Below, in pieces: positions 1 through 56,557 of a stretch of 64,000 nt of DNA. The notes beneath the pieces were generated by a model. That model saw only the letters and a program-made list of their open reading frames with translations, made no database searches and was not told the origin of the DNA. Origin of the DNA: an uncultured Candidatus Saccharibacteria bacterium (lineage in GTDB: Bacteria > Patescibacteriota > Dojkabacteria > GCA-002793355); assembly GCA_964525295.1 (NCBI GenBank), contig CAZGEO010000001.1, forward strand, positions 572,314 through 636,313. The letters are read 5' to 3'. Numbering within the stretch: the stretch's first letter is position 1; each line of letters starts with the position of its first letter. The position numbers and the translations under genes are program-made.

Positions 1-310
1 AAAGAGCAGTAAGCATGTTATGGTTGTTGTTCCTGGAGATAAAAAACTCGATATGCGGGCAGTATCTGAAAAGGTCGGTGAAAAAGTTGAATTTGAAAAA
101 CCTGAAGCTATTCTCGATACTTACGGTATTATGGTCGGTGGCGTGCCTCCATTCGGTAACGTTCTCGGAATGCGAGTGTTGCTAGATGAAAATGTTGCCA
201 ATAATCCAAAAGTTTCGTTTAATGCAGGAATGCGAACGTGCTCGATTTCGATGAATGGTGCAGATCTTGCCGAGGCAAATGAGGGAGAAATTGGGAAATT
301 TAGTGCCTAG
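1..310 (+). CDS. YbaK/ProX-like aminoacyl-tRNA deacylase, C-terminal fragment (5' end outside window)
   Basis: ORF runs off the window start. C-terminal motifs (GGVPPFG...VSFNAG) resemble the YbaK/ProX deacylase fold. Annotated from frame continuity, not from the ATG at 20. Confidence 0.45.
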   Translation, partial: KSSKHVMVVVPGDKKLDMRAVSEKVGEKVEFEKPEAILDTYGIMVGGVPPFGNVLGMRVLLDENVANNPKVSFNAGMRTCSISMNGADLAEANEGEIGKFSA

Positions 311-384: not shown

Positions 385-467
385 GGAAGAGTGATAAAAA
401 GTTTTCACTTTTGAATAATTGAAAATTGGCAATTGAAAATTAATAATTAATAATTAATGACTGTTGC

Positions 468-1439
468 TTATCGGCAATTCCATTCTCGCGTAGCATCTTG
501 GTAATTGCAGACGATAGAGCCAACACCGTTTCTGATATTCCAACTTTTTTGTTCGCCATTTATGGTTGCTTTTGTGGCGTTTGGTTTTCCTGTAGTGATT
601 TCGTACATTTTGGTCGCGGTATATGTTTGCGAGAAGTCTTCTTTGATACCAACTGCTTTTTGTGTGCTATCTACGACAACTTGAATCCAGGCTTCTCCGC
701 TCACATCGAGCTTTATTGTTGCTTCTTTGCCTTGTGGAGCAGTTGGAACCGTAGATTGTTGAACGCCATTTTGCGTAGATTGTGTTACTTGAACTCCTCC
801 TTGTGGTGCGTACGTCGCAGTTATTAATTTTTCTGTTTTACGACTTTCGATATTCTTCTTCCAAACAACAAATTTGAATGTGTTAGCACCTTCTTTGAGG
901 TCTAAAAGAATGCTGAAAGTATTGTCATCTTTGAGTTGTACTTGTTTATCATTGACAGTCACAATGGTATTGGCCTCAGTAAATCCTTTAATTTCTAGGG
1001 TAGGTTTGTCAACTGTTACTGCCGATTCTTGCGGAGAGGAGATTGTAAAAGAAGGAGCTTGTTGTAATTTATAGAATTGAAAGAACAAATAGCCGAAGAG
1101 ACCGATGAAGAAAACGATAAGCGCGCCTGACATGATCATTGCAGGAGAAATTATGGTACTTTCGGTTTTGATGGGAGAATTTTTTGCTTTGAGGGGAACA
1201 TCTTCTTCTCCTATTTGTCGACGAAAAAGAGCTACGATATTTTCAGCATCTAATCCAAGGTATGATGCGTAACTGCGAATGAATCCTTTAACAAAAGCAG
1301 AGGAATTAAAGCCTGAAAAATCATTACGTTCGATCTTTTCGAGATAATCGGGTTTAATCTTAGTGATCTGTGCTGCTTCCTCGATCTTTTTACCTGCGTG
1401 TTCTCGGGCTTTTTTTAGTAAATTCCCAACTGTTAACAT
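468..1439 (-). CDS. rodZ: RodZ-like cytoskeleton/membrane protein
   Basis: N-terminal XRE-type HTH (LTVGNLLKKAREHAGKKIEEAAQITKIKPDYLEKIE), a single TM segment, and a Q/T-rich C-terminal domain typical of RodZ (HTH_25 + DUF4115). Confidence 0.55.
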   Translation of the reverse strand: MLTVGNLLKKAREHAGKKIEEAAQITKIKPDYLEKIERNDFSGFNSSAFVKGFIRSYASYLGLDAENIVALFRRQIGEEDVPLKAKNSPIKTESTIISPAMIMSGALIVFFIGLFGYLFFQFYKLQQAPSFTISSPQESAVTVDKPTLEIKGFTEANTIVTVNDKQVQLKDDNTFSILLDLKEGANTFKFVVWKKNIESRKTEKLITATYAPQGGVQVTQSTQNGVQQSTVPTAPQGKEATIKLDVSGEAWIQVVVDSTQKAVGIKEDFSQTYTATKMYEITTGKPNATKATINGEQKSWNIRNGVGSIVCNYQDATREWNCR

Positions 1440-1553
1440 GAGTAATTCTCAATTTTTAATTATCAATCTCTATTGACAATTATATATCAAGTACCTACTG
1501 ACTACTAAATGTAGCTCAGTAACGAAATCACAAAATATCTAGTATGATAGCGG

Positions 1554-15257: not shown

Positions 15258-15373
15258 CAATTACTAATTCTCAATTTTCAATTATTAATGCAAATTTAAT
15301 AAGTGCATATTGACAAACGATAAATCTATGCTGTATTATATCGATAGTCAATAAAATTATATTAATAAATAAT

Positions 15374-16647: not shown

Positions 16648-16854
16648 ATGAAAGAAATTATTGTAAATCTTGATGTCATGATGGCGAAACGAAAGATGTC
16701 GCTAACGGAGCTATCTGAAAAAGTAGGCATTACTATGGCAAACCTTTCTATCTTGAAGACAGGCAAAGCTCGTGCCATTCGCTTTGAAACCTTATTGCGA
16801 ATTTGCGAAGTGCTAGATTGCCAACCCGGTGACATTCTGGAATACAGAAGATAG
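16648..16854 (+). CDS. XRE-family (YozG-like) small HTH transcriptional regulator
   Basis: 68 aa; LSLTELSEKVGITMANLSILKTGKARAIRFETLLRICEVLDCQPGDIL is a canonical Cro/C1 HTH. Confidence 0.8.
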   Translation: MKEIIVNLDVMMAKRKMSLTELSEKVGITMANLSILKTGKARAIRFETLLRICEVLDCQPGDILEYRR

Positions 16855-16971
16855 GTAGCAATTTTTAATTATCTATTATTGATTGCTGAGAAATTGACTA
16901 TTACTATTAAACACGCATTAGTGCATTATCGCTTTACATCTTTATTGTGTGCAAATAGGTTATAATATACG

Positions 16972-18306
16972 GTGATCGAAGTGACGCCAAAAGTTCAAAA
17001 GAAGCTGGAAAATTTGCCAACGACACCTGGGTGCTATCTATACTACAACGATAAGCATAGAATCATCTATGTCGGAAAAGCAAAAAACTTGAAAAACCGA
17101 GTGTCAAGCTATTTTGTGAATACATATAAGGGGCCAAAGACAGAAGCTCTCGTTTCGCATATTGCAGACCTAGATTTTATTCAAGTTCGCTCAGAAGTAG
17201 AGGCTTTTCTACTCGAGGCGGAACTGATAAAACGGTATAAACCTCACTATAATTTTGCACTGGTTGATGATAAATCGTATAAGTACATTGCTGTTCAAGA
17301 TTTTGATGTAATTGTTGATGGAAAGAAATACACATTTTCTAAAATCTTTGGCGTTTTTGGAAAAAAGTTGAAGCGAACGCGATATTATGGCCCGTATCCA
17401 GATGGCTCACTCGTTGCGATCGTTTTGAGAGCATTGAGGCGAATTTTTCCTCACTGTGATTATTCTGCAGCAAAATTGAGTCAGTCATTAAAGCAGAAAC
17501 GTCCGTGTATGTATGCACATATTGGATTGTGTCCTGGGGCTTGCGGAAATTTAGAAAAATTGGCTGAAAATCAGAAGAATATCCATGCATTAGAACAATT
17601 TATTAAAAAGGGATATTCTGTGGCTATTGAAGAACTCGAAAAAAGAATGCATCAACATGCTGTGAAGCTAGAATTTGAAGCGGCGAAAGAATTGCGAGAT
17701 GTACTTGAAAAATTGAATAATCTTGAGACTGCGAGTATTCTTCCTGATCAATATACCGATAATCCGAATCTTTTAGTAGATATTCAAGACAAACGTATGA
17801 AAGATGTTGCCGAATTATTCGGCATCGGTGAAGTGAATCGGGTTGAGTGTTACGACATCTCAAACATTATGGAAAAATGGACTGTTGGTTCGATGGTTGT
17901 GAGCGAAAATGGTAAATTGGCAAAAGATCAATATCGGAAATTCCGCATTAAATACACGACTGGAATTTCCGACTTCTGGATGATGAAAGAGATTCTTGGG
18001 CGACGCGTCAAGAAAGAGTGGCGTCGCCCAGATATTTTGCTTATTGACGGAGGTAAAGGGCAAGTAGGTGCAGTAATCGATGCATTGAAAGACACCGCTT
18101 TTAGCGATATACCCGTGATTGGTATCTTCAAGCCGAATGACTATTTCATTCGCAGAATTGAAGGCAAATGGAAAGTTACCAAAGCACTTAAAAACAACAT
18201 TGGTTATTTACATTTGCGAGAACTCCGCGATGAAGCCCATCGATTTGCAAATAGATATCGTAAAGTGTTAATAAAAAAAGATAATAATTATTTTATAAAT
18301 AAATGA
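16972..18306 (+). CDS. uvrC: Excinuclease ABC subunit C, short form lacking the C-terminal (HhH)2 domain
   Basis: GTG start. GIY-YIG (GCYLYYND...IIYVGKAKNLKNRVSSYF), UVR-like helix (FEAAKELRDVLEKL), RNase H-like endonuclease domain ending DEAHRFANRYRK. Only 444 aa. Confidence 0.85.
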   Translation: MIEVTPKVQKKLENLPTTPGCYLYYNDKHRIIYVGKAKNLKNRVSSYFVNTYKGPKTEALVSHIADLDFIQVRSEVEAFLLEAELIKRYKPHYNFALVDDKSYKYIAVQDFDVIVDGKKYTFSKIFGVFGKKLKRTRYYGPYPDGSLVAIVLRALRRIFPHCDYSAAKLSQSLKQKRPCMYAHIGLCPGACGNLEKLAENQKNIHALEQFIKKGYSVAIEELEKRMHQHAVKLEFEAAKELRDVLEKLNNLETASILPDQYTDNPNLLVDIQDKRMKDVAELFGIGEVNRVECYDISNIMEKWTVGSMVVSENGKLAKDQYRKFRIKYTTGISDFWMMKEILGRRVKKEWRRPDILLIDGGKGQVGAVIDALKDTAFSDIPVIGIFKPNDYFIRRIEGKWKVTKALKNNIGYLHLRELRDEAHRFANRYRKVLIKKDNNYFINK

Positions 18307-18806
18307 AATCTTTAAACGATTCTAGAGAGGCGAATAGATTGTATGATGCCGTTGTTATTCCTCAGCAAGAAATGCTCGATAGAATCGAAGTTATCAATAG
18401 AAGTTCTGACATAAGATGGAGTGTTCTATTAGCACCAGTCAATAATGAATTCGCCAATGCAGTAGAATTTGCAGATGTAGGTTCTCCTCAGACACGGGCT
18501 CAATTGAGCACTTTGGTAGCAGAAGATGCTGATACCGAAATCGCTGCAAGAAAGTTTCCAGAAAGGCGTTTTTCAAGACTTTTGTTTTACGATCCAAAAG
18601 AAGGAAACTTTGCACAGGAACGTCTTCTACTGAATCAACGGTCAGATGGTTCTTATCAATTTGTAACCTTTAGTGAATCTGGATTACAAGATATGCAAAT
18701 TCAGGGGTTCAACAACTTTATGGTTTTGCTTTCAATTGCTCTAAATGAACATAATTCTTCAAAAGGTTCTCCCGCAACTTTTACTCCACTTCGAATTGAT
18801 GATTGA
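18303..18806 (+). CDS. Hypothetical protein, translationally coupled to uvrC (4-nt overlap)
   Basis: 167-aa ORF; no recognisable motif; no HhH. Confidence 0.4.
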   Translation: MKSLNDSREANRLYDAVVIPQQEMLDRIEVINRSSDIRWSVLLAPVNNEFANAVEFADVGSPQTRAQLSTLVAEDADTEIAARKFPERRFSRLLFYDPKEGNFAQERLLLNQRSDGSYQFVTFSESGLQDMQIQGFNNFMVLLSIALNEHNSSKGSPATFTPLRIDD

Positions 18807-18823
18807 GAATTATAAATTAATAA

Positions 18824-20314
18824 TTATTCCTTCCATCCTCCAGCTCTCAAATTCGAGTAGGCGGGTAACGTTCCTCCGAGCATGATTTTCTTCCCAATAG
18901 GTTTGAATGGATCGCTTGAATCGATAACTAATACAGTTTTCATCTCATCGAGAATTACAACTCCTTGCGAAAAATCTTTATTCCAAGCAATTTTCCCAAA
19001 GGCTTTTCCTTCGAGTAATGGCAGAAGAGTTGGATCTGGCGTAATTTCTTTTGCCTGCTCATCTGGAAGTGAAAAAAGGTAGTATTTTGATGATTTTTCT
19101 ACTGGTGATTTCTCTTTATTCGTGTAAGTGAGCGTAATATACGCGAGTTTGTAATCATTAAAGAAAATTGCTGTGTAGGTAGGCACGTGATTAGCATTTA
19201 CTTCTGCTCGTTTTAGTAGTGTTGGAACTTCGGTCAGTACGTCCTCTTTTGTTTGTTGTAAGTTGAATGTTGTAATTTCTGCAGTTTCGGTAAAACCCTC
19301 AGACATATAGAAAAGTCGACCGTTTTTGCCATCAACTTCTGGTCCCCAAAGAATTTTTTCATATCGCGCTGAAGGAATGACAATTTTCGTTTTGTTGTAA
19401 GTGGTTCGATTTATTAAAAAATAGGTGTCGGTTTTTTGTTGTTGTGTACCTGTGAGAAGATGGTGAGTAGTGGTAGTTCCCACATAGTTTGCAATAACAA
19501 CATCTTTTTCGTTTTGAATCGCGCGAATCGGCTGCTTTGTGTCTGCGCTATTGTAAATGAATGCAGATTTGGGAACTTTTTGACAAACGCCTTCCCAGCC
19601 ACAGGCACTTTGATAGAAATAGTAGAAATACTCTGTAGCGGAAACAAATTTTCCCTCGATGAATTGATTATCGGGAGCTGTTGCAATTTTTTTCATTGTA
19701 CTATTTGCAACGGCATTTCCAATTTCTAGTGTCTTTGAAGTGCGCTTTATGCGTAGTTTACTATCTGATGAAAGTTCGCCAATTTCAGTAGTTTTACCCT
19801 GCGCATCGAGATTTCTGTATACAAAAGGAGAGCTTGCCATATTATCTGCGAGTGCAATAAGTGTTCCTTCTGGTGAGAATTCTGCAACCTTTGTGACTAA
19901 TCCCTGGGAATCAAGAAGTTCAATGAGGAAGTTCTTTTTTACTGTGACTGTTGGAAACGGAGTTTGTGAAGGTGCGTTACTGGCAGTTGGTGTAGGCGTT
20001 GGGGTTGGCGTAACTGGTGGTTTGGGGGTCTCGCTGAGTTGGGTGAAAATAATAAAAATGACAGCGATTGCAAGAATTGCAAAAGCAGTAATACCTATAA
20101 CAATGGTTGTGAGTCGCTTTTGTGTTGTAGGCTCTTTGTTTAGTTCAGTGTTTGGCGATACAGTTTCTGGCAATGAAGGTTCAGAAGGTGACGGAGCAGT
20201 TGATGAAATTGGGGGAGTGGGTGGGAGTGGTGGGGGCGTAGGAATAGTATCAATTGTTGGAGGAATTGGAGGTTCAGGCGGTTGACCTGGATTAATTAGT
20301 GTTGGATTTTCCAT
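18824..20314 (-). CDS. Hypothetical Pro/Thr-rich membrane-anchored surface protein
   Basis: N-terminal PT-rich low-complexity region, one TM (IVIGITAFAILAIAVIFIIF), a second PT linker, then a globular about 380-aa domain. Confidence 0.5.
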   Translation of the reverse strand: MENPTLINPGQPPEPPIPPTIDTIPTPPPLPPTPPISSTAPSPSEPSLPETVSPNTELNKEPTTQKRLTTIVIGITAFAILAIAVIFIIFTQLSETPKPPVTPTPTPTPTASNAPSQTPFPTVTVKKNFLIELLDSQGLVTKVAEFSPEGTLIALADNMASSPFVYRNLDAQGKTTEIGELSSDSKLRIKRTSKTLEIGNAVANSTMKKIATAPDNQFIEGKFVSATEYFYYFYQSACGWEGVCQKVPKSAFIYNSADTKQPIRAIQNEKDVVIANYVGTTTTHHLLTGTQQQKTDTYFLINRTTYNKTKIVIPSARYEKILWGPEVDGKNGRLFYMSEGFTETAEITTFNLQQTKEDVLTEVPTLLKRAEVNANHVPTYTAIFFNDYKLAYITLTYTNKEKSPVEKSSKYYLFSLPDEQAKEITPDPTLLPLLEGKAFGKIAWNKDFSQGVVILDEMKTVLVIDSSDPFKPIGKKIMLGGTLPAYSNLRAGGWKE

Positions 20315-32212: not shown

Positions 32213-32271
32213 CGGATGGTTTCCTTGTGAATCCGCTTCATCAGAAACAGCCAAGATATTAATAATTGAGC

Positions 32272-32296
32272 ATTGATAATTAACAATTAATTTCAC
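32272..32296. repeat. 25-nt element ATTGATAATTAACAATTAATTTCAC abutting a stop codon (identical copy at 53051..53075)
   Basis: Exact 25/25 identity between two unrelated gene 3' ends; member of a wider AT-rich AATTGAAAATT / TTAATAATTAA motif family. Confidence 0.6.
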
Positions 32297-32871
32297 CTCC
32301 TCTTCTCCGTTGCCAAATTCTTGGCCCAGTCATTAACCTTGGTGTGGTAAACGGTAAGGGCGAGTTTTTTACCATATTCCGTCAAATACGTTTGGTTAAT
32401 CCAATCCTCATTATTTTCGAGCCATTCTTTCGCTTGTTGGTTGTTGTAAGTGAAAACTTGCTCTTGCAACAATATCATCTGAGCCATTCTATCGGCATCT
32501 TTAACACATTTTGCCTCTAACGATTCACGTTTCCCATACTCTTCAAGTAGCGTCTTGATATTTAGGTGATCTAATTCTTCTGGGAACATTTCAGCAATTG
32601 CCTCCTCTTCGTATGCTTTGACGTATCTTTTGTTAATCCAGGCAATATCACCTGTCCTGGTTTCTGCCGTGTCGTGCGACATTGCCATTAAAAGAACCTT
32701 TTCGATATTTGCGCCCTCGTGCTTTGCAATAATGTAAGCAATCCAGGTTACTAAGTAAGAATGAGTCGCAAGATTGTCGCTTAGGTCGTCGAGTAATAAA
32801 ACAGGGCGGTGGTTTCGAACTATCTTTCGCATTGTTGAAAGTTCAAACAAGAGGTTTGCTTCTTTTTTCAT
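32293..32871 (-). CDS. HD-domain 5'-deoxynucleotidase (YfbR-like)
   Basis: HSYLV...H...MSHDTAETRTGDI...DADR pattern of YfbR-type HD phosphohydrolases. Confidence 0.65.
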   Translation of the reverse strand: MKKEANLLFELSTMRKIVRNHRPVLLLDDLSDNLATHSYLVTWIAYIIAKHEGANIEKVLLMAMSHDTAETRTGDIAWINKRYVKAYEEEAIAEMFPEELDHLNIKTLLEEYGKRESLEAKCVKDADRMAQMILLQEQVFTYNNQQAKEWLENNEDWINQTYLTEYGKKLALTVYHTKVNDWAKNLATEKRR

Positions 32872-33466: not shown

Positions 33467-33544
33467 ATACCATTATATCACGGAGTGTATTTTAGTGTAT
33501 ATAGGTGATGTGTTATTTGTGGTCAGACATTGCTATAATCCTTC

Positions 33545-43958: not shown

Positions 43959-45035
43959 ATGAAGATAATTGAAAACTACTCATTAAAAGAATTAAATACT
44001 TACGGGGTTGCAGCTTCAGCGAGGTATTATGCAAATATTGAAGATACTACGGAACTCGTAGAGTTGTTGAATGATAAAAAATATACGGGTTTGCCGTTGA
44101 AGATCCTTGGTGGTGGAAGTAATGTTTTGTTTGTACACGACTTTCCGGGAATTGTAGCTCACCTGAATTTGCGTGGAAGAGCAGTTGTTTACGAAGATGC
44201 CGAAAAGGTGCATATCGAATGCGCAGCTGGTGAATCATGGCATGATTTTGTAACTTACGCAGTTGAGAACGAGTTTGAAGGCGTTGAAAATATGGCATTA
44301 ATTCCTGGAACTATTGGTGGCGCGGTTGTCGGAAATATTGCAGCCTATGGGCAAAATTTGAGTGATGTTATTCTTTCAGTTAAGGTGCTTAATACGAAAA
44401 CAAACGAAGTTCTAGAAATGAGTAAAGAAGAATTGCGATTGCGCTACCGAGATAGTATTTTCAAAGAAAGGCGTGAACTTATCATATTATCGGCAACATT
44501 TGAACTCAAGAAACAATATGAACAATTAGAAACTTCATATCATGAGCGAAAGGGGCGATACGGCTCATTAGAAGAAGAGTTGCAAAGTTTTTCATCACCA
44601 CCGTACACAATAAAAGATGTATATAATGCGGTAATTAGGCAGAGAACGAAGCGTTTGCCAAGCGTTGAGGAAGTCGGCAATGCGGGAAGTTTCTTTGTAA
44701 ATCCAATAATTACAAAAGAGAAGTTTGAGGAGTTATACAAAAAAATTCCTGAATTACAATCATACCCAGCTGAAGATTTGAAATATACACGTAAAGATTG
44801 GGAAGATGTGAAAGATCAGTATGTAAAAATTCCAGCGGGTAGGGTAATTGAATTTCTTGGCTGGCGCGGTAAATGGGAAGGTAATGTTGGTATTTCAGAA
44901 AAGCATGCATTATGTGTTGTTACTAACAAGCAAGCAACTGGCGAGGAAGTCTTAGCTTTCACAGAAAAGGTTAAAAAAGACGTTCTCGAAAAATACGGAA
45001 TAGAGCTGAAGTCAGAGATTGATATTATTCAGTAA
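43959..45035 (+). CDS. murB: UDP-N-acetylenolpyruvoylglucosamine reductase
   Basis: FAD-binding PCMH-type N-terminus (LKILGGGSNVLF) and MurB C-terminal domain (GSFFVNP, R...E catalytic region). Confidence 0.85.
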   Translation: MKIIENYSLKELNTYGVAASARYYANIEDTTELVELLNDKKYTGLPLKILGGGSNVLFVHDFPGIVAHLNLRGRAVVYEDAEKVHIECAAGESWHDFVTYAVENEFEGVENMALIPGTIGGAVVGNIAAYGQNLSDVILSVKVLNTKTNEVLEMSKEELRLRYRDSIFKERRELIILSATFELKKQYEQLETSYHERKGRYGSLEEELQSFSSPPYTIKDVYNAVIRQRTKRLPSVEEVGNAGSFFVNPIITKEKFEELYKKIPELQSYPAEDLKYTRKDWEDVKDQYVKIPAGRVIEFLGWRGKWEGNVGISEKHALCVVTNKQATGEEVLAFTEKVKKDVLEKYGIELKSEIDIIQ

Positions 45036-45052
45036 TTTTCAATTGTTAATAA

Positions 45053-45337
45053 TTAATGCCCAATTGCAACTGTTTTCTGCTTTTGTAGCCAATATCTCTT
45101 AAGTGCATTTAACGACAATGTGGACAAAAGGAATCCGAGTGTTGGAATTATTGAGTTTACGTAGGGAATGTCGTTACCAAGCGACCACATAAAAGCTGTC
45201 ATAACAAGGTAAGTCAATAAAGCAATTGAAACTTTGCGAAAAGTACTTGTTTCCCAAGCTTTATCAAGTTCAACACGCGCGTTACGATTTTGAATTTCTA
45301 TTATTTGTTTTGTAATTTCTTCTATAGAAGTATTCAT
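45053..45337 (-). CDS. Hypothetical small 2-TM membrane protein
   Basis: 94 aa with two hydrophobic segments. Confidence 0.35.
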   Translation of the reverse strand: MNTSIEEITKQIIEIQNRNARVELDKAWETSTFRKVSIALLTYLVMTAFMWSLGNDIPYVNSIIPTLGFLLSTLSLNALKRYWLQKQKTVAIGH

Positions 45338-45397
45338 ATTTTTATCGAAGATTAATAATTATTAATTAACGGTTTATATAAATTTAAAAAGTGCCGT

Positions 45398-46757: not shown

Positions 46758-47603
46758 CTAAATTCTGGAGAGAATCCCAACTTTAGGGGATTTTGTTAAG
46801 CCTTCTTGGGTCAAATCTGATGCAACTTTGTTAATAATCTCACTGGAATAACCTACTAAGTTGATGTTTTTTAGCTTTATTGAACCTTTTGTAAGAACTT
46901 CTCGAAGAAGAAAACCTCGAACATATCGCTCTGAACCTTTGAAAGGTTTCTGTTTCGTGTATCCTTTTTGCTTATGAAAATAATCGTGACCTTCAGATTT
47001 CAGGAAGTTTCCGTAATCCATTAGGGCATAATACCATTCTCTTGGGCCTTTTTCGGCTGATGTCGGTGAAAGTTGTATCGCTAATCGCGATAGTATTTGC
47101 TTTATTTCTTTATCAGAAACTTGGGCGTTGTCGGCGAAAAAATGATGAATAATAACGGTTCGAATGTTAGTCTCGACAACGATCGTTGGTTGATTGTAGG
47201 CGAACGCCAGAATGGCGTTCGCCGTATATTCTCCAACACCAGGTAATTTCCGCAATTCTTTTTCATTAAGTGAAAACTCTTTCTTGTTTGGAATTGAAAA
47301 TTGAGAATCAAGAATTACTAACTGTTTTGCAGCTTGCTGCAAAAACTTTGCTCGACGGTTATATCCAAGGCCACTCCACGCTAAAAGTACTTCGCTTAAT
47401 GGGGCATTCGCGAGTGTCTCTGGAGAGGGAAATTGTTGCATCCAACTTTGGTATTTTGGTAAAACTCTATGAGTTTGAGTTTGTTGCAACATAATTTCAG
47501 ATACAAGAATTTCATACAAATTGTGAGTTTCTCTCCAAGGAAATGAACGCCGATTTTTCTGGTGAAAATCCCAAATGAGCGTAATGAAATCGGCATCTGA
47601 CAT
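46758..47603 (-). CDS. HhH-GPD base-excision glycosylase (MutY/Nth-like, no Fe-S cluster cysteines seen)
   Basis: EILVSEIMLQQTQ, HhH (LRKLPGVGEYTANAILAFAYN), catalytic Asp region. No C-x6-C-x2-C-x5-C motif. Confidence 0.65.
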   Translation of the reverse strand: MSDADFITLIWDFHQKNRRSFPWRETHNLYEILVSEIMLQQTQTHRVLPKYQSWMQQFPSPETLANAPLSEVLLAWSGLGYNRRAKFLQQAAKQLVILDSQFSIPNKKEFSLNEKELRKLPGVGEYTANAILAFAYNQPTIVVETNIRTVIIHHFFADNAQVSDKEIKQILSRLAIQLSPTSAEKGPREWYYALMDYGNFLKSEGHDYFHKQKGYTKQKPFKGSERYVRGFLLREVLTKGSIKLKNINLVGYSSEIINKVASDLTQEGLTKSPKVGILSRI

Positions 47604-47636
47604 GACAGATTATAGCAAACTAGGGTATAATTCTTT

Positions 47637-50774: not shown

Positions 50775-50843
50775 AAGATTATAGGGAGGGGAGGGATGGA
50801 TGTCAAGAGACGGGGCTTTGCGTTCAAAAATTGTTAAACTCCA

Positions 50844-51803
50844 TTATAAATCGCCTATTGCTTTCATTATCTCAACCGCAACATCTCTTTTTGCAGCTTT
50901 TTCTTCTTTGTAATGAATTCTCATGCCAGGGTCAACGTTGGTTTCGATAATATATGCTTCTGCTCCGGGTTTATCAATGTATGGGGAGATAATGTCGATT
51001 CCTGCAAGTCTAAAGCCAGCTATTTTTGTTGCTGTAACAGCCAAATCTTTGTAACTTTGGTCACATTCGTCGGTCACATCTGCAACTGTACCACCAAGTG
51101 ATAAATTCGCGGTTAATCGTAAATAAACTTCAACTTCTTTTGGTAAAACATCATTTGGTTTGTAACCTTGCGCTTCGACAATACTCCAAGTGTACGTATT
51201 CATTGGTACTTGAGGCAATCCTTTAGCATGATTCTCCATATTGTAATCGTCGATTAGTGTTCTCACTTTGGTTTGTCCATCGCCTTTGATTAGTGGTGGA
51301 TTGCGCAGCGAAACTGCAAGAACTTTGCCATCGAGAACGAGAAAACGATAATTTTTTCCTACAACGAATTTTTCTGCGATAACCTTTTTTGATATTTTGT
51401 GTGCGCGGTTAAGTGACTCGGGTAATTCATTTTCTTTCGGCAAAACGGTGATTCCTTTTCCGCCATGACCATCAATCGGTTTAACTACGATTTGCTTGTA
51501 GGTTCTGTGAAAGAGTTCTAAACTTTGCAGATCTTTGATTTTTGTTTGTGGAGGAGTCGGCAGGCCTGCCTTGCTTAATGTTAACGTCGTATCACGTTTG
51601 TTTTTTGATAATAAAGCCTGTGGAACTAAATTAAGCGGTGTTGCTGCTTTGTAGCAGAGTACTTCTTTTCCAGATTTTGTGCGAATCCAGAGTGCGTGGT
51701 TGTTGAGTGACAATCTGTACGGAAGCTTTAGCTTTTCGCAGGCTGAAACATAAATTCGTGTGTGAACATTCGGGATTCTAGCGGGAGTTTCTGTGCTTTC
51801 CAT
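50844..51803 (-). CDS. ATP-grasp domain protein (RimK/GshB-like ligase)
   Basis: VVKPIDGHGGKGITV, a FLVLDGKVLAV strand and YIIETNVDPGM C-terminal region in ATP-grasp order. Confidence 0.55.
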   Translation of the reverse strand: MESTETPARIPNVHTRIYVSACEKLKLPYRLSLNNHALWIRTKSGKEVLCYKAATPLNLVPQALLSKNKRDTTLTLSKAGLPTPPQTKIKDLQSLELFHRTYKQIVVKPIDGHGGKGITVLPKENELPESLNRAHKISKKVIAEKFVVGKNYRFLVLDGKVLAVSLRNPPLIKGDGQTKVRTLIDDYNMENHAKGLPQVPMNTYTWSIVEAQGYKPNDVLPKEVEVYLRLTANLSLGGTVADVTDECDQSYKDLAVTATKIAGFRLAGIDIISPYIDKPGAEAYIIETNVDPGMRIHYKEEKAAKRDVAVEIMKAIGDL

Positions 51804-51883
51804 ATTGAATTATACCAATTAAAGCAATAAAGCGCTAAAGTAGTGAAACATTAAAGTATTGTGGCTTTAGGGGCTTTATCTCT

Positions 51884-52999
51884 TTATTGCTTTAAATTCT
51901 CTAAGAATTTCAAGTACCACCAAACATTGTGTAGCGAGGCGAGTGTATAACCAACAGGATTTTTCTTTTTCATGAGAAATCGAAGGTAGGCGCGGGTGTA
52001 ATTCTTGCAGACGGGACAATCGCAATTCTTGTCGATTGGTCCAAGATCGGTTTCATACTTTTGTGAAGTTATTCTTACTAAATCAAAGGTTCTACCGGCT
52101 TTTTCAGCGGTTCCAGGGGTAACGAAAAGTGAGCCATGTCGCGCGTTTCGCGTTGGGATAACGCAGTCAAAAATGGTCATTCCGATTTTGTAACAAGTTT
52201 CGATATCGTCAGGAGTGCCAACGCCCATACCGTAGGTTATTGCAGTTTCGGGCACTGATTTGACAAATGCTTCGGCAATTTTTGTGTTGAATACGCCATT
52301 TTCATCCATTGGCCAACCACCAAAACCGTATAAATCGAAGCCAATTGCTGCCAATTGTCTGCCTGATTCTGCGCGGAGTTCCGGGTCGTTTCCTCCCTGT
52401 ACAACAGCTCCAAGAAGTGGCCGCTCAATTTTCAATTCATAATTTTCACTAGTTGTTGGCAGTTGAGAATTGGCAATTGATAATTGCGTTAGCTTTTCAA
52501 ACTCTCTCTTTGCGCGCTCAGCCCATCTTGTTGTCTGTTCCATTGCTGCAAGGGTAGTTTTGCGGTCCTCTGTGCCCATGAGTGGAACGTCTAGAACCAT
52601 TCGAATGTCGCTGCCGATTGTATGCTGAATTTGCTGTGACAATTCTGGTGTTAAGGTTGTTTTCTGTTTTCCGTTTTTGGTTAAGCGGAAAACGGCTCCT
52701 TCTTCAGTAACTTTTCCAAGTTTATGTTTGTGAATCAGTGAAAGAACTTGGAATCCGCCGCTGTCGCTAAGAATTACTGTTTCATCTGGCAAATTTGCCA
52801 TTTCGCGGTAAGTCGTTGTTTCGGCAAATTTGCCGAGTTCTTCAATCATCCCAATTAACTTCATGTGAAGTGTTGTCACAACGATTCCGGGAAGCTTTTC
52901 GCGAATTTCATGAAAGGGCAGGCTGTGAATAGCTGCATAAGTTGCGTCAGGAAAAAAAGTGGGAAGTTTTAGTATTTTTGGAATAAATTCTGAAGACAC
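51884..52999 (-). CDS. tgt: Queuine tRNA-ribosyltransferase (tRNA-guanine transglycosylase)
   Basis: DSGGFQ, LGVGTPDD/GMTIFDCVIPTRNARHG, zinc site CDCPVCKNYTRAYLRHL-like. Confidence 0.9.
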   Translation of the reverse strand: MSSEFIPKILKLPTFFPDATYAAIHSLPFHEIREKLPGIVVTTLHMKLIGMIEELGKFAETTTYREMANLPDETVILSDSGGFQVLSLIHKHKLGKVTEEGAVFRLTKNGKQKTTLTPELSQQIQHTIGSDIRMVLDVPLMGTEDRKTTLAAMEQTTRWAERAKREFEKLTQLSIANSQLPTTSENYELKIERPLLGAVVQGGNDPELRAESGRQLAAIGFDLYGFGGWPMDENGVFNTKIAEAFVKSVPETAITYGMGVGTPDDIETCYKIGMTIFDCVIPTRNARHGSLFVTPGTAEKAGRTFDLVRITSQKYETDLGPIDKNCDCPVCKNYTRAYLRFLMKKKNPVGYTLASLHNVWWYLKFLENLKQ

Positions 53000-53050
53000 G
53001 TCGTTAGTTATTAATATTTAGTAAATAGCGGCAATAATTGAAAATTAAGA

Positions 53051-53075
53051 ATTGATAATTAACAATTAATTTCAC
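53051..53075. repeat. 25-nt element ATTGATAATTAACAATTAATTTCAC abutting a stop codon (identical copy at 32272..32296)
   Basis: Exact identity with the copy at 32272..32296; preceded by AATTGAAAATT, which also recurs elsewhere. Confidence 0.6.
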
Positions 53076-53437
53076 TTTCCCTCAATTGCCTCAACTATCT
53101 CTGCGAAATTCTTCGCTTTAAGAATTTTTTTTCTTGCTGCAAGTAACTCATCGGAAGTAAGTGGCCCTAAGGTATAGTAAGTTTTAAGCAATTCTGGGGC
53201 AATATCTAAACGCATTGGAATCTTTTTTGTCATTTGTAGGGGCTTTATAACATGTGCCATATAGATACCCTTGCAATTATCGCACTGCGCCTGTATAATG
53301 ACCGAGGCGTTTGATTCGCTAACGATATCTATATTATCGGTCTTATAAGCAGTGCCACATTTATCACAAAACTTCGAAACATTCTCAATGAAAAAGAATC
53401 GTAACGATTCAAGGTTGTTGCCAATAGTATTCTCCAT
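53072..53437 (-). CDS. Hypothetical zinc-ribbon protein
   Basis: CDKCG...CDNCKG Cys pairs. Divergent from rpoD with only a 21-nt spacer. Confidence 0.4.
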
Positions 53438-53458: not shown

Positions 53459-54970
53459 ATGAAAGATTTACTTTCACGAAAGAAGGTTCAAGCGCTCTTA
53501 ACGAAGGGCCAAACGCAAGGTTTTTTGACTGAAAGTGATGTTTTGTTAGTGTTTCCTAACCCTGAAGTTGACTTAGAATCACTAGAGCAATTTCTTGCCA
53601 TTCTTGAAAAAGAAAATGTTGAAGTTCTTTATGCTGATGATATGCCTGCAAAACCGGTAAAAATGTCATTAGAAGAGAAGATCAAAATTTTAGAAAGTAT
53701 TCAGGCCTCGGTTACTGGTAACCCACTTCGTTCTTACTTGCAGGAAATTGGAAAAATCCCACTTCTTACACAAGATGAAGAACAGGTTCTTGCCGAAAGA
53801 AAGGACGTTGGCGTAGTAATTGAATACTATCAAATTCTTTTGTTCTTTCAGTCATTTTTTAAGGAACTCATAGAACTGCCAGAAGAGCAGCAAAAAGCAT
53901 GGGTTGAAGTACTCTTAAAACAATTGAAAACCAAGCAACCATTGACGAAACCGTCTGGTGGATTGAGTTTCAAGCCTCTTTATACAACAGAATACATGCA
54001 AAATTACGTCGATACCTTCATGGATGAGTTAAAAGAGAAGGGATTGTCAGGCTTTCAAAAGGCAGTTGAATCTGGCTTGCAAAATGAAGAAATTGGAACG
54101 ACTCATGAATCACTTTTGAAACTCGAAAGTGAATGGAATGTTGCAGTTGGGCGATTTAAAGCTGATGTCTTTGCAAAGATACCCAAAATTACGCAGAAAG
54201 CTGAACGTGAAATGAATAAATTCCTGATTGAAGGCAATAAAGCAAAAGATTTATTGACGTTAGCAAACCTTCGTTTGGTCGTTAGTGTCGCAAAAAGATA
54301 TGCTCGAAAAGGGCTCGATTTTCTCGATTTGATTCAGGAAGGCAATATTGGCTTAATGAAGGCAGTTAACAAATTCGATCGTAGAAAAGGTTTCAAATTT
54401 TCAACGTATGCTACTTGGTGGATTCGTCAATCTATTACTCGTGCGATCGCCGACCAAGGTCGAACAATCCGTATTCCGGTACACATGCACGAAACAATTA
54501 ACAAGCTTCGTAAAGTTAAGACTCAGCTTGCCTCAAAGCTTGGGCGAACACCAACAGTCCCAGAGCTCGCCCGCGCCATGGAAATGGATCGCGAAAAGCT
54601 CGAATATATTGACCAAATTTCGCAGTATCCAACCTCATTAACAGGTGAACGATCCTCGTCAAGTAACGATGAAGAAGATGTACAGTTAGCTGAAATTGTC
54701 GCAGATACCAAGATTGAAGGTCCTGAAGAAGAAGCTGCTCGTGAAATTTTACACAAGGAACTAATTGATTTGCTTAAAGAACTTCCTGAACGAGAACGTA
54801 GAGTATTAGAACTACGTTTTGGTTTAGCCGATGGCGTTGTTAGAACGCTTGAAGAAGTGGGTAAAGAATTCAAAGTAACTCGCGAAAGAATTCGACAAAT
54901 AGAGGCAAAGGCGTTGTATAGACTCCGTGAAATTGCAGAAGAGAAGAGGCTTTCGACGTACATTCATTAA
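53459..54970 (+). CDS. rpoD: RNA polymerase primary sigma factor (sigma-70)
   Basis: Region 2 ([62 protein letters not shown]), region 3 and region 4 ([15 protein letters not shown]) present. Confidence 0.9.
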
Positions 54971-55062
54971 TAATTACTAATTATTAATTTTCAATTGTGA
55001 AGTATATTGTTGTTGCGTCAAAGTTTCGTACATAATGATAATTGTTAATTGAAAATTATCAA

Positions 55063-55335
55063 TTATTGTGGTGTTGGTGTGGGAATTGTGATCTCGATGC
55101 TCTCTGTTTGTCCGTTGGCGAATTGTTCTCTAGTGATAATCAGGTATTTTTCTGCTCTTTCTTGAATCTTTGCAAGAAGCTCTTCGTCAAGGCTTGCTGG
55201 TAGTAAATTGATAGAAGTTGCACTAACTCCAGAAGAATCTTGTGCCGGTGAAATAAAAGCAAACAAAATTTGCCCAGCTACAACAACAACTGCGAGAAGT
55301 AACGCAAAGACTATAAAAAATCTTGAACCGTTCAT
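55063..55335 (-). CDS. Hypothetical small membrane-anchored protein (PilP position in pilNO operon)
   Basis: N-terminal TM; overlaps pilO by 4 nt. Confidence 0.35.
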   Translation of the reverse strand: MNGSRFFIVFALLLAVVVVAGQILFAFISPAQDSSGVSATSINLLPASLDEELLAKIQERAEKYLIITREQFANGQTESIEITIPTPTPQ

Positions 55336-55946
55336 GGTGAGGCTGCGGAATTCAGTTTATAAACTAAGATCGTTACAGAAATTGTTGTCTTCGTTGGATC
55401 ATTGGCGTTTGGCGAATATGAGAGACTCAGTATTTCAGGCAAAAATGGTAAATTTTCAAGGTATGTCAAAAATTGATGAATGTTAACGTAGTTTCCTACA
55501 AGTGAAAGTTGGAATGTCGTTGGGTTGAGCCCCTCATATTGCAGATTTTTGTCGGATTCAACCTGTCGGTAATAATTACTAGAAAAAGATACTGCGGTTA
55601 ACCAGAAACCGTGTTTTCGTGCAAGTTCATTGACATTTGTAACAAACAGTGAGTAATCACCATCGTTTGGATAATAAGCGTCGAGCGCTTGCATTTCGTC
55701 TGCTAGTTCATTTTGTTGAGAAACAAGTGTCGTTATTCTGGTATTTTGAGTTTCCATTCGATCGAGTAGAGCTTTCTTTTCAGTATACTTTTTGTTGGTT
55801 TCGATAATGGTGAGTATGGTAGGACGAAAAGAGCCCCACAAGAGGGCAGTTACTAAAACAAGAGTGAGTAAACCTGTTGAGAAAGCTTTTTGTTGGCTTG
55901 TTTGCAAAAGGTCTGCGATATTTCTCGATTTTGCTAGGGTTGCCAT
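55332..55946 (-). CDS. pilO: Type IV pilus assembly protein PilO-like
   Basis: N-terminal TM, coiled-coil (LLDRMETQNTRITTLVSQQNELADEMQAL), and C-terminal domain of PilO size. Immediately follows pilN. Confidence 0.5.
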   Translation of the reverse strand: MATLAKSRNIADLLQTSQQKAFSTGLLTLVLVTALLWGSFRPTILTIIETNKKYTEKKALLDRMETQNTRITTLVSQQNELADEMQALDAYYPNDGDYSLFVTNVNELARKHGFWLTAVSFSSNYYRQVESDKNLQYEGLNPTTFQLSLVGNYVNIHQFLTYLENLPFLPEILSLSYSPNANDPTKTTISVTILVYKLNSAASP

Positions 55947-55947
55947 A

Positions 55948-56490
55948 CTAATTGACCTTTATTTTGAAGTTAACCGAGAAATTGATACCACTACCTGCTG
56001 TCTGGTTTGCAGAAACAGTGACGTTACTAAAGGTTTCTGTAGCGCTTTTTAAGTTGTTTTCTAGCTGTAGAAGGGTGTCGTATGAAGTTACCTGCCCAGA
56101 CATTGCAGAAGAACTAATATCAAGGGTTACTGTGCGAACGTTTACTCCAGGAGGGATAAGTGACTGCAACTGAGTATAGTAATAAGCAAGTGAAAATGAA
56201 TCATTTTCTAATTCATTGAGCGATTTCATACCTACAATTAGTTCGCGTACGCGAGCCTCTTCAGGCGCTCTTTGGTCGAGTAATTCTTTTTGGGCTTCAA
56301 TTTCACTATCTAATGCCGAAATTTGGCTGTCAAGAACGAATCTGTAGGCAATGGCGCCGAGAACAATAAGTTCAGTTATGATAATGATGTATTTGGCTGT
56401 ATTTGCAGTCCACGCGTAGATACGATCCCACTGACTTTGTGGGCGTATTTCTGCAGTTAACAAATTGATAGACTTTTTCGGGGCAGCCAT
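55948..56490 (-). CDS. pilN: Type IV pilus assembly protein PilN-like
   Basis: Conserved N-terminal INLL motif (KSINLLTAEI), one TM, coiled-coil periplasmic domain. Confidence 0.55.
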   Translation of the reverse strand: MAAPKKSINLLTAEIRPQSQWDRIYAWTANTAKYIIIITELIVLGAIAYRFVLDSQISALDSEIEAQKELLDQRAPEEARVRELIVGMKSLNELENDSFSLAYYYTQLQSLIPPGVNVRTVTLDISSSAMSGQVTSYDTLLQLENNLKSATETFSNVTVSANQTAGSGINFSVNFKIKVN

Positions 56491-56557
56491 ATTTACGCAA
56501 GTATAGCATGCAATTTAGGTAATTGTTAATGCTAGGTAAAGAAGGTATAATAAATGT

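What the first reader, a model, noticed from the sequence alone, without database searches (positions are those of the whole stretch)
53000..53075. Recurrent AT-rich motif family at gene 3' ends, including an identical 25-mer at two unrelated loci
ATTGATAATTAACAATTAATTTCAC occurs identically at 32272-32296 and 53051-53075. Each time it abuts and includes the stop codon of a different minus-strand gene. Related cores AATTGAAAATT and TTAATAATTAA recur, in either orientation, at 417-465, 15270-15292, 18810-18823, 45036-45060, 45340-45370, 53021-53031 and 54975-55062. All of these are at convergent or 3' intergenic positions. The pattern looks like orientation-independent, GC-hairpin-free termination/insulator signals, or sites for a nucleoid or partition protein. 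It does not look like random AT-richness.
Basis: seen in the sequence. Interest (0 to 1): 0.5.

Follow-up and report, generated by a model that had tools for sequence, protein, structure and literature searches.

The report
Stop-codon-anchored seven-base AATT repeat arrays
The "AT-rich motif family" is a set of short tandem arrays of a degenerate 7-base unit (NNN-AATT), sitting in a fixed orientation right after stop codons in one lineage of an uncultured Dojkabacteria (CPR) bacterium; this is a new example of the heptamer repeats already known from other bacteria, whose function is still unknown.

Summary
AATT recurs every 7 nt: 9 exact runs of at least 3 units against 0.08 expected. The 25-mer is simply three heptads plus a TGA stop.

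About 11 intergenic arrays of 3-7 units are present.
- They start 0-10 nt after a stop codon (placement test p≈1e-4).
- In 9 of 10 they put the pyrimidine-rich variable triplet (TTC, ATT, ATC, CTC) on the sense strand. They are therefore orientation-dependent, not orientation-independent.
- One array abuts a start codon, and three heptad-like stretches lie inside genes.

The host is a Candidatus Dojkabacteria. Eight related loci (RpoD 50-84% identical) have no such arrays, so the arrays are recent gains. A sister strain (97.7% identity) shows no unit gain or loss and no extra conservation, and there the 25-mer identity is already broken.

The same 21-mer occurs inside AATT-heptad arrays of unrelated Capnocytophaga and Bacteroidia contigs. 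Given the small heptad vocabulary, three shared units arise in 26% of unit shuffles.

The closest known analogues are the stop-proximal heptameric repeats of Xanthomonas and Nostoc.

Verdict: a new member of a known class of heptanucleotide arrays. A termination or protein-binding role is neither shown nor excluded.

The parts
412..458 (-). Heptad array of 6-7 units, 9 nt after the stop of the RodZ-like gene 468..1439(-). It includes a perfect (AATTAAT)x3 and a 14-nt sub-period.
1443..1468 (+). Heptad array of 3-4 units in a divergent intergenic region, abutting the start codon of the RodZ-like gene. This is the exception to the 3' rule. On that gene's sense strand it reads AATTGAx, the purine-rich orientation.
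15258..15290 (+). Heptad array of 4-5 units starting directly after the uvrA stop codon. It is followed by a TTGACA-18-TATTAT promoter-like site for the next gene.
16860..16890 (+). Degenerate heptad array 5 nt after the stop of the 68-aa Xre-type HTH gene 16648..16854.
18789..18825 (-). Heptad array of 5 units that fills the 17-nt convergent intergenic region. It is in sense orientation for gene 18824..20314(-) and overlaps the last codons and the TGA stop of gene 18303..18806(+).
32258..32296 (-). Heptad array of 5 units directly after the TGA stop of the HD-domain gene 32293..32871(-). It contains copy 1 of the 25-mer (32272-32296).
45029..45056 (+). Short heptad array spanning the murB stop and the whole 17-nt convergent intergenic region.
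45344..45370 (-). Heptad array between murA (stop 27 nt away, behind an AT-rich hairpin) and the start of gene 45053..45337(-). This is the one array not anchored at a stop codon.
53033..53075 (-). Heptad array of 5-6 units directly after the TGA stop of the 121-aa gene 53072..53437(-) and upstream of tgt. It contains copy 2 of the 25-mer (53051-53075). Relatives have a 2-nt gap between these genes and a 9-15 aa longer protein tail.
54968..54996 (+). Heptad array of 4 units starting at the rpoD stop codon. It is the left arm of an inverted array pair.
55036..55064 (-). Heptad array of 4 units abutting the stop of gene 55063..55335(-). It is the right arm of the inverted pair. The roughly 42-nt spacer (54997-55039) is hyper-diverged between strains.
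47288..47317 (-). Heptad-like run inside the HhH-GPD glycosylase gene, next to a 24-nt in-frame indel between strains.
52424..52485 (.). Two opposed heptad-like runs inside tgt. They encode a variable loop that carries a 5-aa insertion relative to a relative.

Best explanation
The motif family is a set of lineage-specific tandem arrays of a degenerate heptanucleotide. Each unit has a variable triplet plus the palindromic core AATT, and each array has 3-7 units. This is the AT-rich counterpart of the heptameric simple-sequence arrays already known from Xanthomonas, Nostoc, Beggiatoaceae and Bacteroidota.

Shown:
- The 7-nt register.
- The start 0-10 nt after stop codons.
- The fixed polarity: TAATT-type units lie next to the stop and CAATT-type units lie distal, so the sense strand is pyrimidine-rich with C>G.
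- Absence from related species.
- Stability and neutral-like drift between two strains.

Inferred:
- The arrays arose after this lineage split from its sampled relatives, by strand slippage or unequal exchange in 7-nt register. Traces are the perfect (AATTAAT)x3 and the 14-nt sub-periods.
- There was probably some copying between loci, because pairs of arrays resemble each other.
- They then degenerated by point mutation.
- They persist at the very start of 3' untranslated regions of a compact, leaderless, terminator-poor genome. There they are transcribed as an unstructured, U-rich, G-poor tail.

The 25-mer identity reflects two arrays that share their first three units and the TGA stop context. 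It is not a discrete protein-coding, RNA or mobile element. I take any function to be weak or non-essential. The stop-anchoring and polarity are the features this explanation leaves least well accounted for.
For: - Periodicity: 9 exact chains of at least 3 AATT at 7-nt spacing vs 0.08 in 200 dinucleotide shuffles. In intergenic DNA alone, 24 spacing-7 pairs vs 0.89. Tandem Repeats Finder reports period-7 and period-14 arrays at the same places, including a 100%-match (AATTAAT)x3.
- Stop anchoring: Fisher-combined p=1.2e-4 against uniform placement within the intergenic region.
- Polarity: 9 of 10 arrays, p=0.011. The sense-strand triplets have C:G = 30:9, from my hand count of the units listed.
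- Lineage specificity: 0 chains in 145 kb from eight related Dojkabacteria loci (RpoD 50-84% identical) and no period-7 arrays by Tandem Repeats Finder. The orthologous junction between tgt and its upstream gene is 2 nt in relatives but 72 nt here.
- Strain comparison over 23 kb at 97.7% identity: arrays differ at 10/288 positions, other intergenic DNA at 40/1135 (23/1096 without the rpoD spacer), and coding DNA at 2.1%. No heptad unit was gained or lost.
- The same AATT-heptad vocabulary, and the identical 21-mer, occur in arrays of unrelated Capnocytophaga and Bacteroidia contigs.
- Published precedent: heptamers are the most over-represented long simple-sequence repeat class in prokaryotes, as summarised in PMC4679880. 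[quoted passage not shown]
Against: - A purely neutral slippage product does not predict the tight anchoring at stop codons, the consistent strand polarity, or the ordered TAATT-to-CAATT gradient.
- A streamlined genome with tiny intergenic regions would be expected to purge 30-45-nt inserts at about 20% of gene ends if they were useless.
- No unit-number polymorphism was seen between strains, unlike active simple-sequence repeats.
- Similarities between arrays (hyp121 vs HD 85% over 46 nt; uvrA vs rpoD about 26 of 31 by my reading of alignment A4) hint at copying between loci rather than only in-place growth.
- Only 64 kb of one genome plus 23 kb of a sister strain were available.
Confidence: 0.55

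Rival explanations
1. RNA-level 3'-end signal. The arrays are transcribed as U-rich, C>G, structure-free heptad repeats. These would serve as a hairpin-less termination or pause zone, or as a landing platform for a single-strand RNA-binding factor with a footprint of about 7 nt (Rho, a cold-shock-domain protein or an S1-like protein). That factor would end transcription or set mRNA 3'-end stability in a genome that lacks canonical terminators.
For: - The fixed sense-strand polarity and the start at the stop codon.
- Unstructured RNA for single arrays.
- No enrichment of canonical terminators, and none seen in 3' intergenic regions.
- Sense-strand triplets with C:G = 30:9 (hand count from the units).
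- PMC4679880 notes that B. subtilis CspB binds T-rich heptamers such as TTCTTTT, one protein per heptamer. TTCAATT resembles this.
- Non-canonical, unstructured 3' ends are common in cyanobacteria (PMC12642595).
Against: - Only about 20% of genes carry an array, and many convergent pairs have intergenic regions of 4-39 nt with nothing in them.
- Arrays are absent in all relatives, which presumably terminate transcription too.
- No purifying selection is visible between strains.
- Arrays of 30-45 nt are shorter than typical Rho loading sites (own knowledge).
- In Capnocytophaga the same arrays sit in the opposite orientation directly upstream of start codons.
- The presence of Rho or cold-shock proteins in this genome was not tested.
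Confidence: 0.2
2. Double-stranded DNA binding arrays. Each heptad, with its palindromic AATT core, would bind one dimer of a cooperative DNA-binding protein, such as a ribbon-helix-helix protein like omega/ParB of pSM19035 or a nucleoid-associated minor-groove binder. This would form a filament that acts as a transcriptional roadblock or insulator at gene ends.
For: - The strict 7-bp register with a palindromic 4-bp core, and a typical size of 4-6 units.
- Arrays occur as direct runs and as inverted pairs.
- Precedent: the pSM19035 parS site consists of contiguous 7-bp repeats in direct or inverted orientation, and at least 4 are needed for function (PMC9499535).
Against: - No cognate binding protein was identified.
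- The arrays are dispersed at roughly 1 per 6 kb rather than clustered as a centromere or operator.
- The variable triplet has a strand polarity tied to transcription direction, which a symmetric AATT binder would not require.
- No conservation between strains, and absence from relatives.
Confidence: 0.1
3. Dispersed mini-element. The arrays would be diverged copies of a roughly 40-nt REP/MITE-like element with an internal 7-nt periodicity. It would be inserted at gene ends by a recombinase or by template switching, sometimes bringing its own stop codon.
For: - Array pairs share order and sequence beyond the AATT core: hyp121 vs HD 85% over 46 nt including G-TGA; uvrA vs rpoD about 26 of 31.
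- The 121-aa protein is truncated exactly where the array starts, relative to three relatives.
- The array pair after rpoD sits at the junction of a 3-gene inversion.
- REP elements also favour 3' and convergent intergenic regions and occur as inverted pairs (own knowledge).
Against: - I saw no terminal inverted repeats or target-site duplications in the aligned flanks.
- Array lengths and unit orders vary continuously.
- Single arrays do not form the stable hairpin typical of REPs.
- Three shared units are expected in 26% of unit shuffles.
- Perfect local triplications point to in-place slippage.
- No transposase or RAYT gene was seen in the window, but not all ORFs were scanned.
Confidence: 0.08
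4. Chance low-complexity AT-rich sequence with no common origin or structure.
For: Intergenic DNA is AT-rich (GC 34%). About 7 of the 35 metagenome hits to the 21-mer lie in contigs with GC below 0.35 and show no heptad continuation, so they look like chance matches.
Against: Every shuffle control is exceeded by a wide margin, including shuffles of the intergenic regions alone.
Confidence: 0.01

Closest known systems
G-rich heptameric intergenic repeats of Xanthomonas, (GGGANTN)n, and Nostoc, GGGGA(C/T)T (Rehm et al. 2015, PMC4692102)
   Same: Both are tandem 7-nt units with conserved and variable positions. Both have mostly about 4 units, are dispersed and mostly intergenic, lie within 0-50 bp of or overlap the stop codon with a preferred strand, and often form inverted pairs. 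Both are poorly conserved between related species, and neither has a known function.
   Different: Those repeats are G-rich and form G-quadruplexes. The arrays here are AT-rich with an AATT core and cannot. Those repeats vary widely in unit number, from 2 to 26. The arrays here have 3-7 units and were stable between two strains. The host phylum also differs (CPR).
Cyanobacterial STRR heptamers and TAACTGA heptamer repeats of Beggiatoaceae, Cyanobacteria and Bacteroidetes (MacGregor 2015, PMC4679880)
   Same: Both are short tandem heptamer arrays of 2-6 units in intergenic DNA. Both have a sporadic, lineage-specific distribution and a fixed orientation relative to the neighbouring gene. Related genomes have shorter, repeat-free intergenic regions.
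   Different: TAACTGA units are nearly identical and lie mostly just upstream of start codons. Here the units are degenerate and lie just downstream of stop codons.
AATT-core heptad arrays in Capnocytophaga and other Bacteroidia
   Same: They use the same unit vocabulary (GTT, ATC, TTC + AATT) and even the same 21-mer. They fill intergenic regions, and some overlap stop codons.
   Different: The hosts are unrelated and there is no flanking homology. In Capnocytophaga many arrays lie in the purine-rich orientation directly upstream of the start codon. I found no published description of them.
pSM19035 parS / omega (ParB) heptad operators (PMC9499535)
   Same: Both consist of contiguous 7-bp repeats in direct or inverted orientation. 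There, at least 4 repeats are needed for function.
   Different: Those heptads are plasmid-borne, lie upstream of promoters, have the consensus WATCACW (own knowledge) and have an adjacent cognate gene. Here the arrays are chromosomal, number in the dozens, lie at gene 3' ends, and have no known binder.
REP/BIME elements and intrinsic terminators
   Same: They share the preferred location at gene 3' ends and in convergent intergenic regions. The inverted array pairs can fold (z = -2.3 to -3.9).
   Different: Single arrays lack a stable hairpin, GC-rich stems and a T-run. Copies are not near-identical.

Membership tests
Heptanucleotide tandem-repeat (long simple-sequence repeat / STRR-like) arrays | Head-to-tail units with a 7-nt period, at least 2-3 units | tested here: met
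   AATT spacing of 7 occurs 41 times vs about 11 background. There are 9 exact chains of at least 3 units vs 0.08 in shuffles. Tandem Repeats Finder reports period 7 and 14.
Heptanucleotide tandem-repeat (long simple-sequence repeat / STRR-like) arrays | Dispersed and predominantly intergenic | tested here: met
   27 of 41 spacing-7 pairs lie outside or at the edge of genes, although non-coding DNA is about 7% of the window. Arrays are spread from 0.4 to 55 kb.
Heptanucleotide tandem-repeat (long simple-sequence repeat / STRR-like) arrays | Sporadic, lineage-specific occurrence; related genomes lack them at orthologous sites | tested here: met
   0 chains in 145 kb of related Dojkabacteria loci, and orthologous intergenic regions are shorter and repeat-free.
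Heptanucleotide tandem-repeat (long simple-sequence repeat / STRR-like) arrays | Unit-number polymorphism between strains (active slippage) | tested here: not met
   No heptad gain or loss in 9 arrays between strains 97.7% identical. Only substitutions and 1-nt indels were seen. The units are degenerate, so slippage is probably no longer active.
Intrinsic (Rho-independent) terminator | GC-rich stem-loop followed by a T/U run | tested here: not met
   No array was scored as terminator-like. Terminator-like hits are not enriched and, by my reading of the coordinates, lie inside genes. Single arrays fold no better than shuffles.
Rho utilisation (rut) site | Unstructured, C-rich and G-poor RNA of about 60-80 nt; Rho encoded in the genome | tested here: inconclusive
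   The RNA is unstructured with C>G (30:9 in the variable triplets, hand count). However, the arrays are only 30-45 nt and U-rich rather than C-rich. The presence of a rho gene was not tested because the whole genome is unavailable.
REP/BIME or MITE-type dispersed element | Imperfect palindrome or terminal inverted repeats, target-site duplication, many near-identical copies | tested here: not met
   Single arrays show no stable hairpin. I saw no terminal inverted repeats or target-site duplications in the aligned flanks, and copies share only 50% mean column identity. The 25-mer occurs only twice in the window and once in the sister-strain loci.
Ribbon-helix-helix heptad operator/centromere (omega/ParB of pSM19035 type) | At least 4 contiguous 7-bp repeats bound by a cognate protein encoded nearby; located at promoters or a centromere | tested here: inconclusive
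   The repeat geometry is met. The location at promoters is not met, because the arrays lie at 3' ends. A cognate protein could not be tested, and no ribbon-helix-helix gene was seen among the roughly 30 window proteins scanned.
Phase-variable contingency repeat | Identical units in a promoter or 5' coding region, with length changes that switch expression | tested here: not met
   The units are degenerate, located 3' of genes, and show no length variation between strains.
Known RNA family (Rfam) | Match to a curated covariance model | tested here: not met
   Only tmRNA (26148-26572) reached a gathering score in the window.

The most novel reading that the evidence does not exclude
Short-period arrays anchored at the stop codon would be a sequence-independent, hairpin-less 3'-end signal. 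The arrays in question are the AATT heptads and TAAAG octads here and the G-rich heptamers in Xanthomonas. A factor with a footprint of about 7 nt would read the repeat register rather than the sequence; candidates are RNA polymerase itself, a cold-shock or S1-type RNA binder, or a cooperative heptad DNA binder. It would end or insulate transcription units in bacteria that lack canonical terminators, including CPR bacteria.
Probability: 0.12. Interest if true: 0.7.

Novelty: new member of a known kind. Interest (0 to 1): 0.35.

Why it matters
Heptamer tandem repeats are the most over-represented long simple repeats in prokaryotes, yet they still have no accepted function.

This case adds an AT-rich member from a CPR phylum. 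It cannot form G-quadruplexes, yet it shares several features with the G-rich arrays of Xanthomonas:
- a size of about 4 units;
- anchoring at the stop codon;
- strand polarity;
- inverted pairing.

That weakens the G-quadruplex explanation for those shared features. It points instead to the 7-nt register itself, either as a bias in how the repeats arise or as the footprint of a factor.

The case also gives a compact test bed: a small genome, roughly 1 array per 6 kb, and array-free sister species. With this, one can ask how transcription units end in a terminator-poor, leaderless CPR bacterium.

For annotation, it warns that identical 20-25-mers in such genomes need not mark mobile elements or regulatory sites.

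Tried and rejected
1. Rfam scan of the window found only tmRNA. ARAGORN found no tRNA.

2. Canonical terminators are not enriched and none lies at an array.

3. RNA folding shows that single arrays are unstructured and only inverted pairs fold. The hairpin-terminator idea was dropped.

4. A metagenome scan with the 21-mer was meant to find more copies in the same organism. All 35 hits were unrelated organisms, so genome-wide recurrence in the source genome could not be tested.

5. Extending beyond the window failed. Four exact-protein look-ups found nothing on record.

6. Relatives were checked for different-sequence period-7 arrays, and none was found.

7. Arrays were tested for conservation between strains, and they are not conserved. 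An apparent 7-nt, one-unit deletion at 47288-47294 was an alignment artefact of a 24-nt in-frame indel.

8. The hyper-diverged spacer between the rpoD arrays was searched for other copies in the window and in the related loci, and none was found.

9. The arrays were considered as antisense promoters, because AATTGAx supplies TTGAxA and AATTAAT supplies a -10-like hexamer about 17 nt later. Several arrays score 9-10 of 12. However, both strands give such hits, exact TATAAT is rare, and promoter-like hits overall are barely above shuffles. I treat this as a by-product of AT-richness.

10. Replication-strand bias was rejected. GC skew is uniformly positive across the window, whereas array orientation follows gene direction.

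11. The arrays were considered as three-frame stop traps. This holds only for TAATT-type units and is not distinctive in AT-rich intergenic DNA.

12. A literal-sequence literature search found no description of AATT heptads.

Full report
**Observation.** The 25-mer ATTGATAATTAACAATTAATTTCAC is present exactly twice, at 32272-32296 and 53051-53075. There is no third match at up to 3 mismatches and none in 100 dinucleotide shuffles. Each copy contains the TGA stop of a different minus-strand gene: an HD-domain phosphohydrolase-like gene (32293..32871) and a 121-aa gene (53072..53437) that lies divergent from rpoD and upstream of tgt. One listed coordinate, 53021-53031, holds no core.

**What the motif really is.** Repeat finding shows that all these sites are one thing: AATT recurring every seven bases. 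For example, 417-458 reads AATTGAA AATTGGC AATTGAA AATTAAT AATTAAT AATTAAT, and the 25-mer reads (A)ATTGAT AATTAAC AATTAAT + TTCAC.
- AATT-AATT spacing of 7 occurs 41 times against about 11 for other spacings, with harmonics at 14 (29) and 21 (24).
- Exact chains of at least 3 units number 9 against 0.08 in 200 dinucleotide shuffles. Shuffling the intergenic regions alone gives 24 spacing-7 pairs against 0.89.
- Tandem Repeats Finder independently reports period-7 and period-14 arrays at the same places, including a perfect (AATTAAT)x3.

**Anatomy.** Allowing one degenerate core, there are about 11 intergenic arrays of 3-7 units.
- They follow the RodZ-like gene, uvrA, a 68-aa HTH gene, gene 18824..20314, the HD gene, murB, murA, the 121-aa gene, rpoD and gene 55063..55335.
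- One array (1443-1468) lies in a divergent region and abuts a start codon.
- Heptad-like stretches also lie inside an HhH-GPD gene (47288-47317) and inside tgt (52424-52485), where they encode variable loops.

- The arrays start 0-10 nt after a stop codon in 7 of 8 informative cases. Against uniform placement within the intergenic region, the Fisher-combined p is 1.2e-4.
- They are polar. On the sense strand of the gene they follow, the variable triplet is pyrimidine-rich (ATT, TTC, ATC, CTC, GTT, ACT) in 9 of 10 arrays (p=0.011). By my hand count of the units listed, C:G is 30:9. Orientation follows gene direction, not the replichore, because GC skew is uniformly positive across the window.
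- Units next to the stop are mostly TAATT-type and distal units mostly CAATT-type (alignment A4).

By class of intergenic region, the 3' preference is only suggestive in this window: 5 of 12 convergent vs 1 of 13 divergent, p=0.07.

A second family, octamers NNTAAAGN, shows the same stop-anchored, sense-oriented layout at 315-381 and 51808-51894.

**Organism and relatives.** RpoD and neighbouring genes place the window in Candidatus Dojkabacteria (WS6, CPR); the nearest genomes have RpoD about 83% identical. -10 boxes sit 6-8 nt upstream of most start codons, which suggests leaderless mRNAs. Hairpin-plus-T-run terminators are not enriched, and by my reading of the coordinates none lies in a 3' intergenic region.

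None of eight related loci (145 kb, RpoD 50-84% identical) has a single chain of at least 3 units or any period-7 array. At the orthologous junction, tgt and its upstream gene are 2 nt apart in relatives and 72 nt apart here. The 121-aa protein lacks the 9-15-residue Lys-rich tail of its orthologues, with its TGA stop exactly at the array edge. The three pilN/pilO-like genes after rpoD are inverted relative to three relatives, so the convergent region carrying two opposed arrays is an inversion junction. The arrays are therefore recent, lineage-specific gains.

**Strain comparison.** Contigs from SRR11582163 are identical to the window. Contigs from SRR32934939 are a 97.7%-identical sister strain covering 23 kb and nine arrays.
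- Differences are 10/288 in arrays, 40/1135 in other intergenic DNA (23/1096 without one hyper-diverged spacer) and 2.1% in coding DNA. No heptad was gained or lost.
- The 25-mer identity is already broken in the sister strain by a 1-nt deletion at the HD locus.
- The roughly 42-nt spacer between the two rpoD arrays carries 17 differences, while the flanking arrays carry 0-3. This remains unexplained.

The arrays are therefore stable, but they show no extra conservation.

**The 25-mer.** Relative to base composition it is impossible by chance. Relative to the small heptad vocabulary it is not: shuffling the observed units among arrays gives two arrays sharing at least 3 consecutive units in 26% of trials. 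The additional G-TGA match lowers this to the percent range by my estimate.

A scan of metagenome contigs for the 21-mer core found 35 contigs, none homologous to the window. About 13 independent loci carry it inside longer AATT-heptad arrays, often next to other heptad arrays such as AGTGACA, TTGTCAT, CTAACTN and TACGAAT. One group is Capnocytophaga, with a U32 peptidase 97% identical to named Capnocytophaga proteins. Another is an environmental Bacteroidia. In those organisms the arrays fill intergenic regions both after stops and, in the opposite orientation, directly before start codons. The 25-mer is thus a coincidence or shared state of two related arrays, not a discrete element. Whether it recurs elsewhere in the source genome could not be tested.

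**Comparison with what is known.** Heptamers are reported as the most abundant long simple-sequence repeats in prokaryotes, possibly because of polymerase slippage in a 7-nt register (Mrazek 2007, as summarised in PMC4679880).
- The closest analogue is the (GGGANTN)n and GGGGAYT arrays of Xanthomonas and Nostoc. [quoted passage not shown]
- TAACTGA heptamers of Beggiatoaceae, Cyanobacteria and Bacteroidetes lie mostly before start codons and have been proposed as S1, Csp or CsrA binding sites.
- Heptad DNA arrays bound cooperatively by a protein are known from pSM19035 parS, where at least 4 contiguous repeats are required (PMC9499535).

**Interpretation.** That the feature is a family of degenerate heptanucleotide arrays is essentially certain.
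- Its origin by 7-nt slippage, with some copying between loci, is inferred from the perfect local triplication, the 14-nt sub-periods and the similarities between arrays.
- Function is open. Absence from relatives, presence at only about 20% of gene ends and neutral-like drift argue against an essential signal. Stop-anchoring, polarity and persistence in a compact genome argue that the arrays are not pure junk.
- I rank the explanations as follows: a weakly functional or tolerated simple-repeat expansion at 0.55, an RNA-level 3'-end signal or binding platform at 0.2, a DNA-binding array at 0.1, a mini mobile element at 0.08, and chance at about 0.01.
- The parallel between AT-rich arrays here and G-rich arrays in Xanthomonas suggests that the shared architecture does not depend on G-quadruplexes. 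This is the most interesting lead.

**Verdict.** This is a real, well-defined feature and a new, CPR-hosted, AT-rich member of a known but functionally unexplained class. Interest is moderate to low unless a 3'-end function is demonstrated.

Noticed in passing
window 315-381 and 51808-51894: A second short-period family: degenerate octamers NNTAAAGN. One array starts at the stop of the tRNA_edit-domain gene 20..310. The other overlaps the tgt stop and is paired with inverted copies, forming a hairpin of about 31 bp (z=-2.0). Both have the same stop-anchored, sense-oriented layout as the AATT heptads.
   Followed up: partly
window 12161-12220: An inverted pair of degenerate heptads, (TTAATAG)x3 and (TATTAAC)x3 with a 20-nt spacer, lies in the divergent region upstream of uvrA and folds strongly (z=-3.9). 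An Xre-type HTH gene (16648..16854) lies between uvrA and uvrC, so this could be an operator.
   Followed up: no
window, most 5' intergenic regions (e.g. 47604-47636, 33467-33544, 56491-56557): TATAAT-like -10 boxes lie 6-8 nt upstream of the start codons and no Shine-Dalgarno sequence is visible. This implies predominantly leaderless mRNAs.
   Followed up: no
window 55063-56490 vs L117, L120, L122: The three-gene pilN/pilO-like block downstream of rpoD is inverted relative to three related species. The left junction is the intergenic region with the two opposed heptad arrays, and the right junction (56491-56557) has a weak heptad remnant.
   Followed up: partly
window 53072-53437: The conserved 121-aa Cys-rich (CxxC...CxxC) protein divergent from rpoD lacks the 9-15-residue Lys-rich C-terminal tail present in relatives. 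Its stop codon coincides with the first base of the array.
   Followed up: partly
window 54997-55039 vs L001 1221-1263: The spacer between the two rpoD-downstream arrays is homologous between strains but about 35-40% diverged, although the strains are otherwise 97.7% identical. No other copy was found in the window or in the related loci.
   Followed up: partly
window 48756-48810 and 48927-48981: Two 82%-identical copies of a 55-nt element lie in a 341-nt convergent intergenic region downstream of groEL. There is no Rfam match. This may be a pair of small RNA genes or a duplicated regulatory element.
   Followed up: partly
window 30393-30771, 27099-27325 and 5465-5717: These intergenic regions are unusually long for this compact genome (379, 227 and 253 nt). 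The first contains a 29-nt inverted repeat (30455-30483 / 30535-30563). No Rfam family reached its gathering score.
   Followed up: no
L001 5400-8785 vs window 50792-50859: The sister strain carries two extra genes (409 and 668 aa, no Pfam hit) inserted between the ATP-grasp gene and groEL.
   Followed up: no
window 47270-47293 and 52424-52485: Heptad-like DNA inside genes coincides with in-frame length variation: 24 nt (8 aa) in the HhH-GPD glycosylase between strains, and 5 aa in a tgt loop relative to a related species.
   Followed up: partly
window 26148-26572: A one-piece tmRNA was detected by Rfam (78 bits) but missed by ARAGORN.
   Followed up: no
L083-L116 (e.g. L084/L087 upstream flank, L093, L112 3557-3616): Capnocytophaga-like and other metagenome contigs carry many other heptad arrays, often several different ones side by side in a single intergenic region. 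Examples are AGTGACA/G, TTGTCAT, CTAACNN, TGCCAAT, TACGAAT, AATTAGG, and a 14-mer TTAATGCCAATAATGA.
   Followed up: partly
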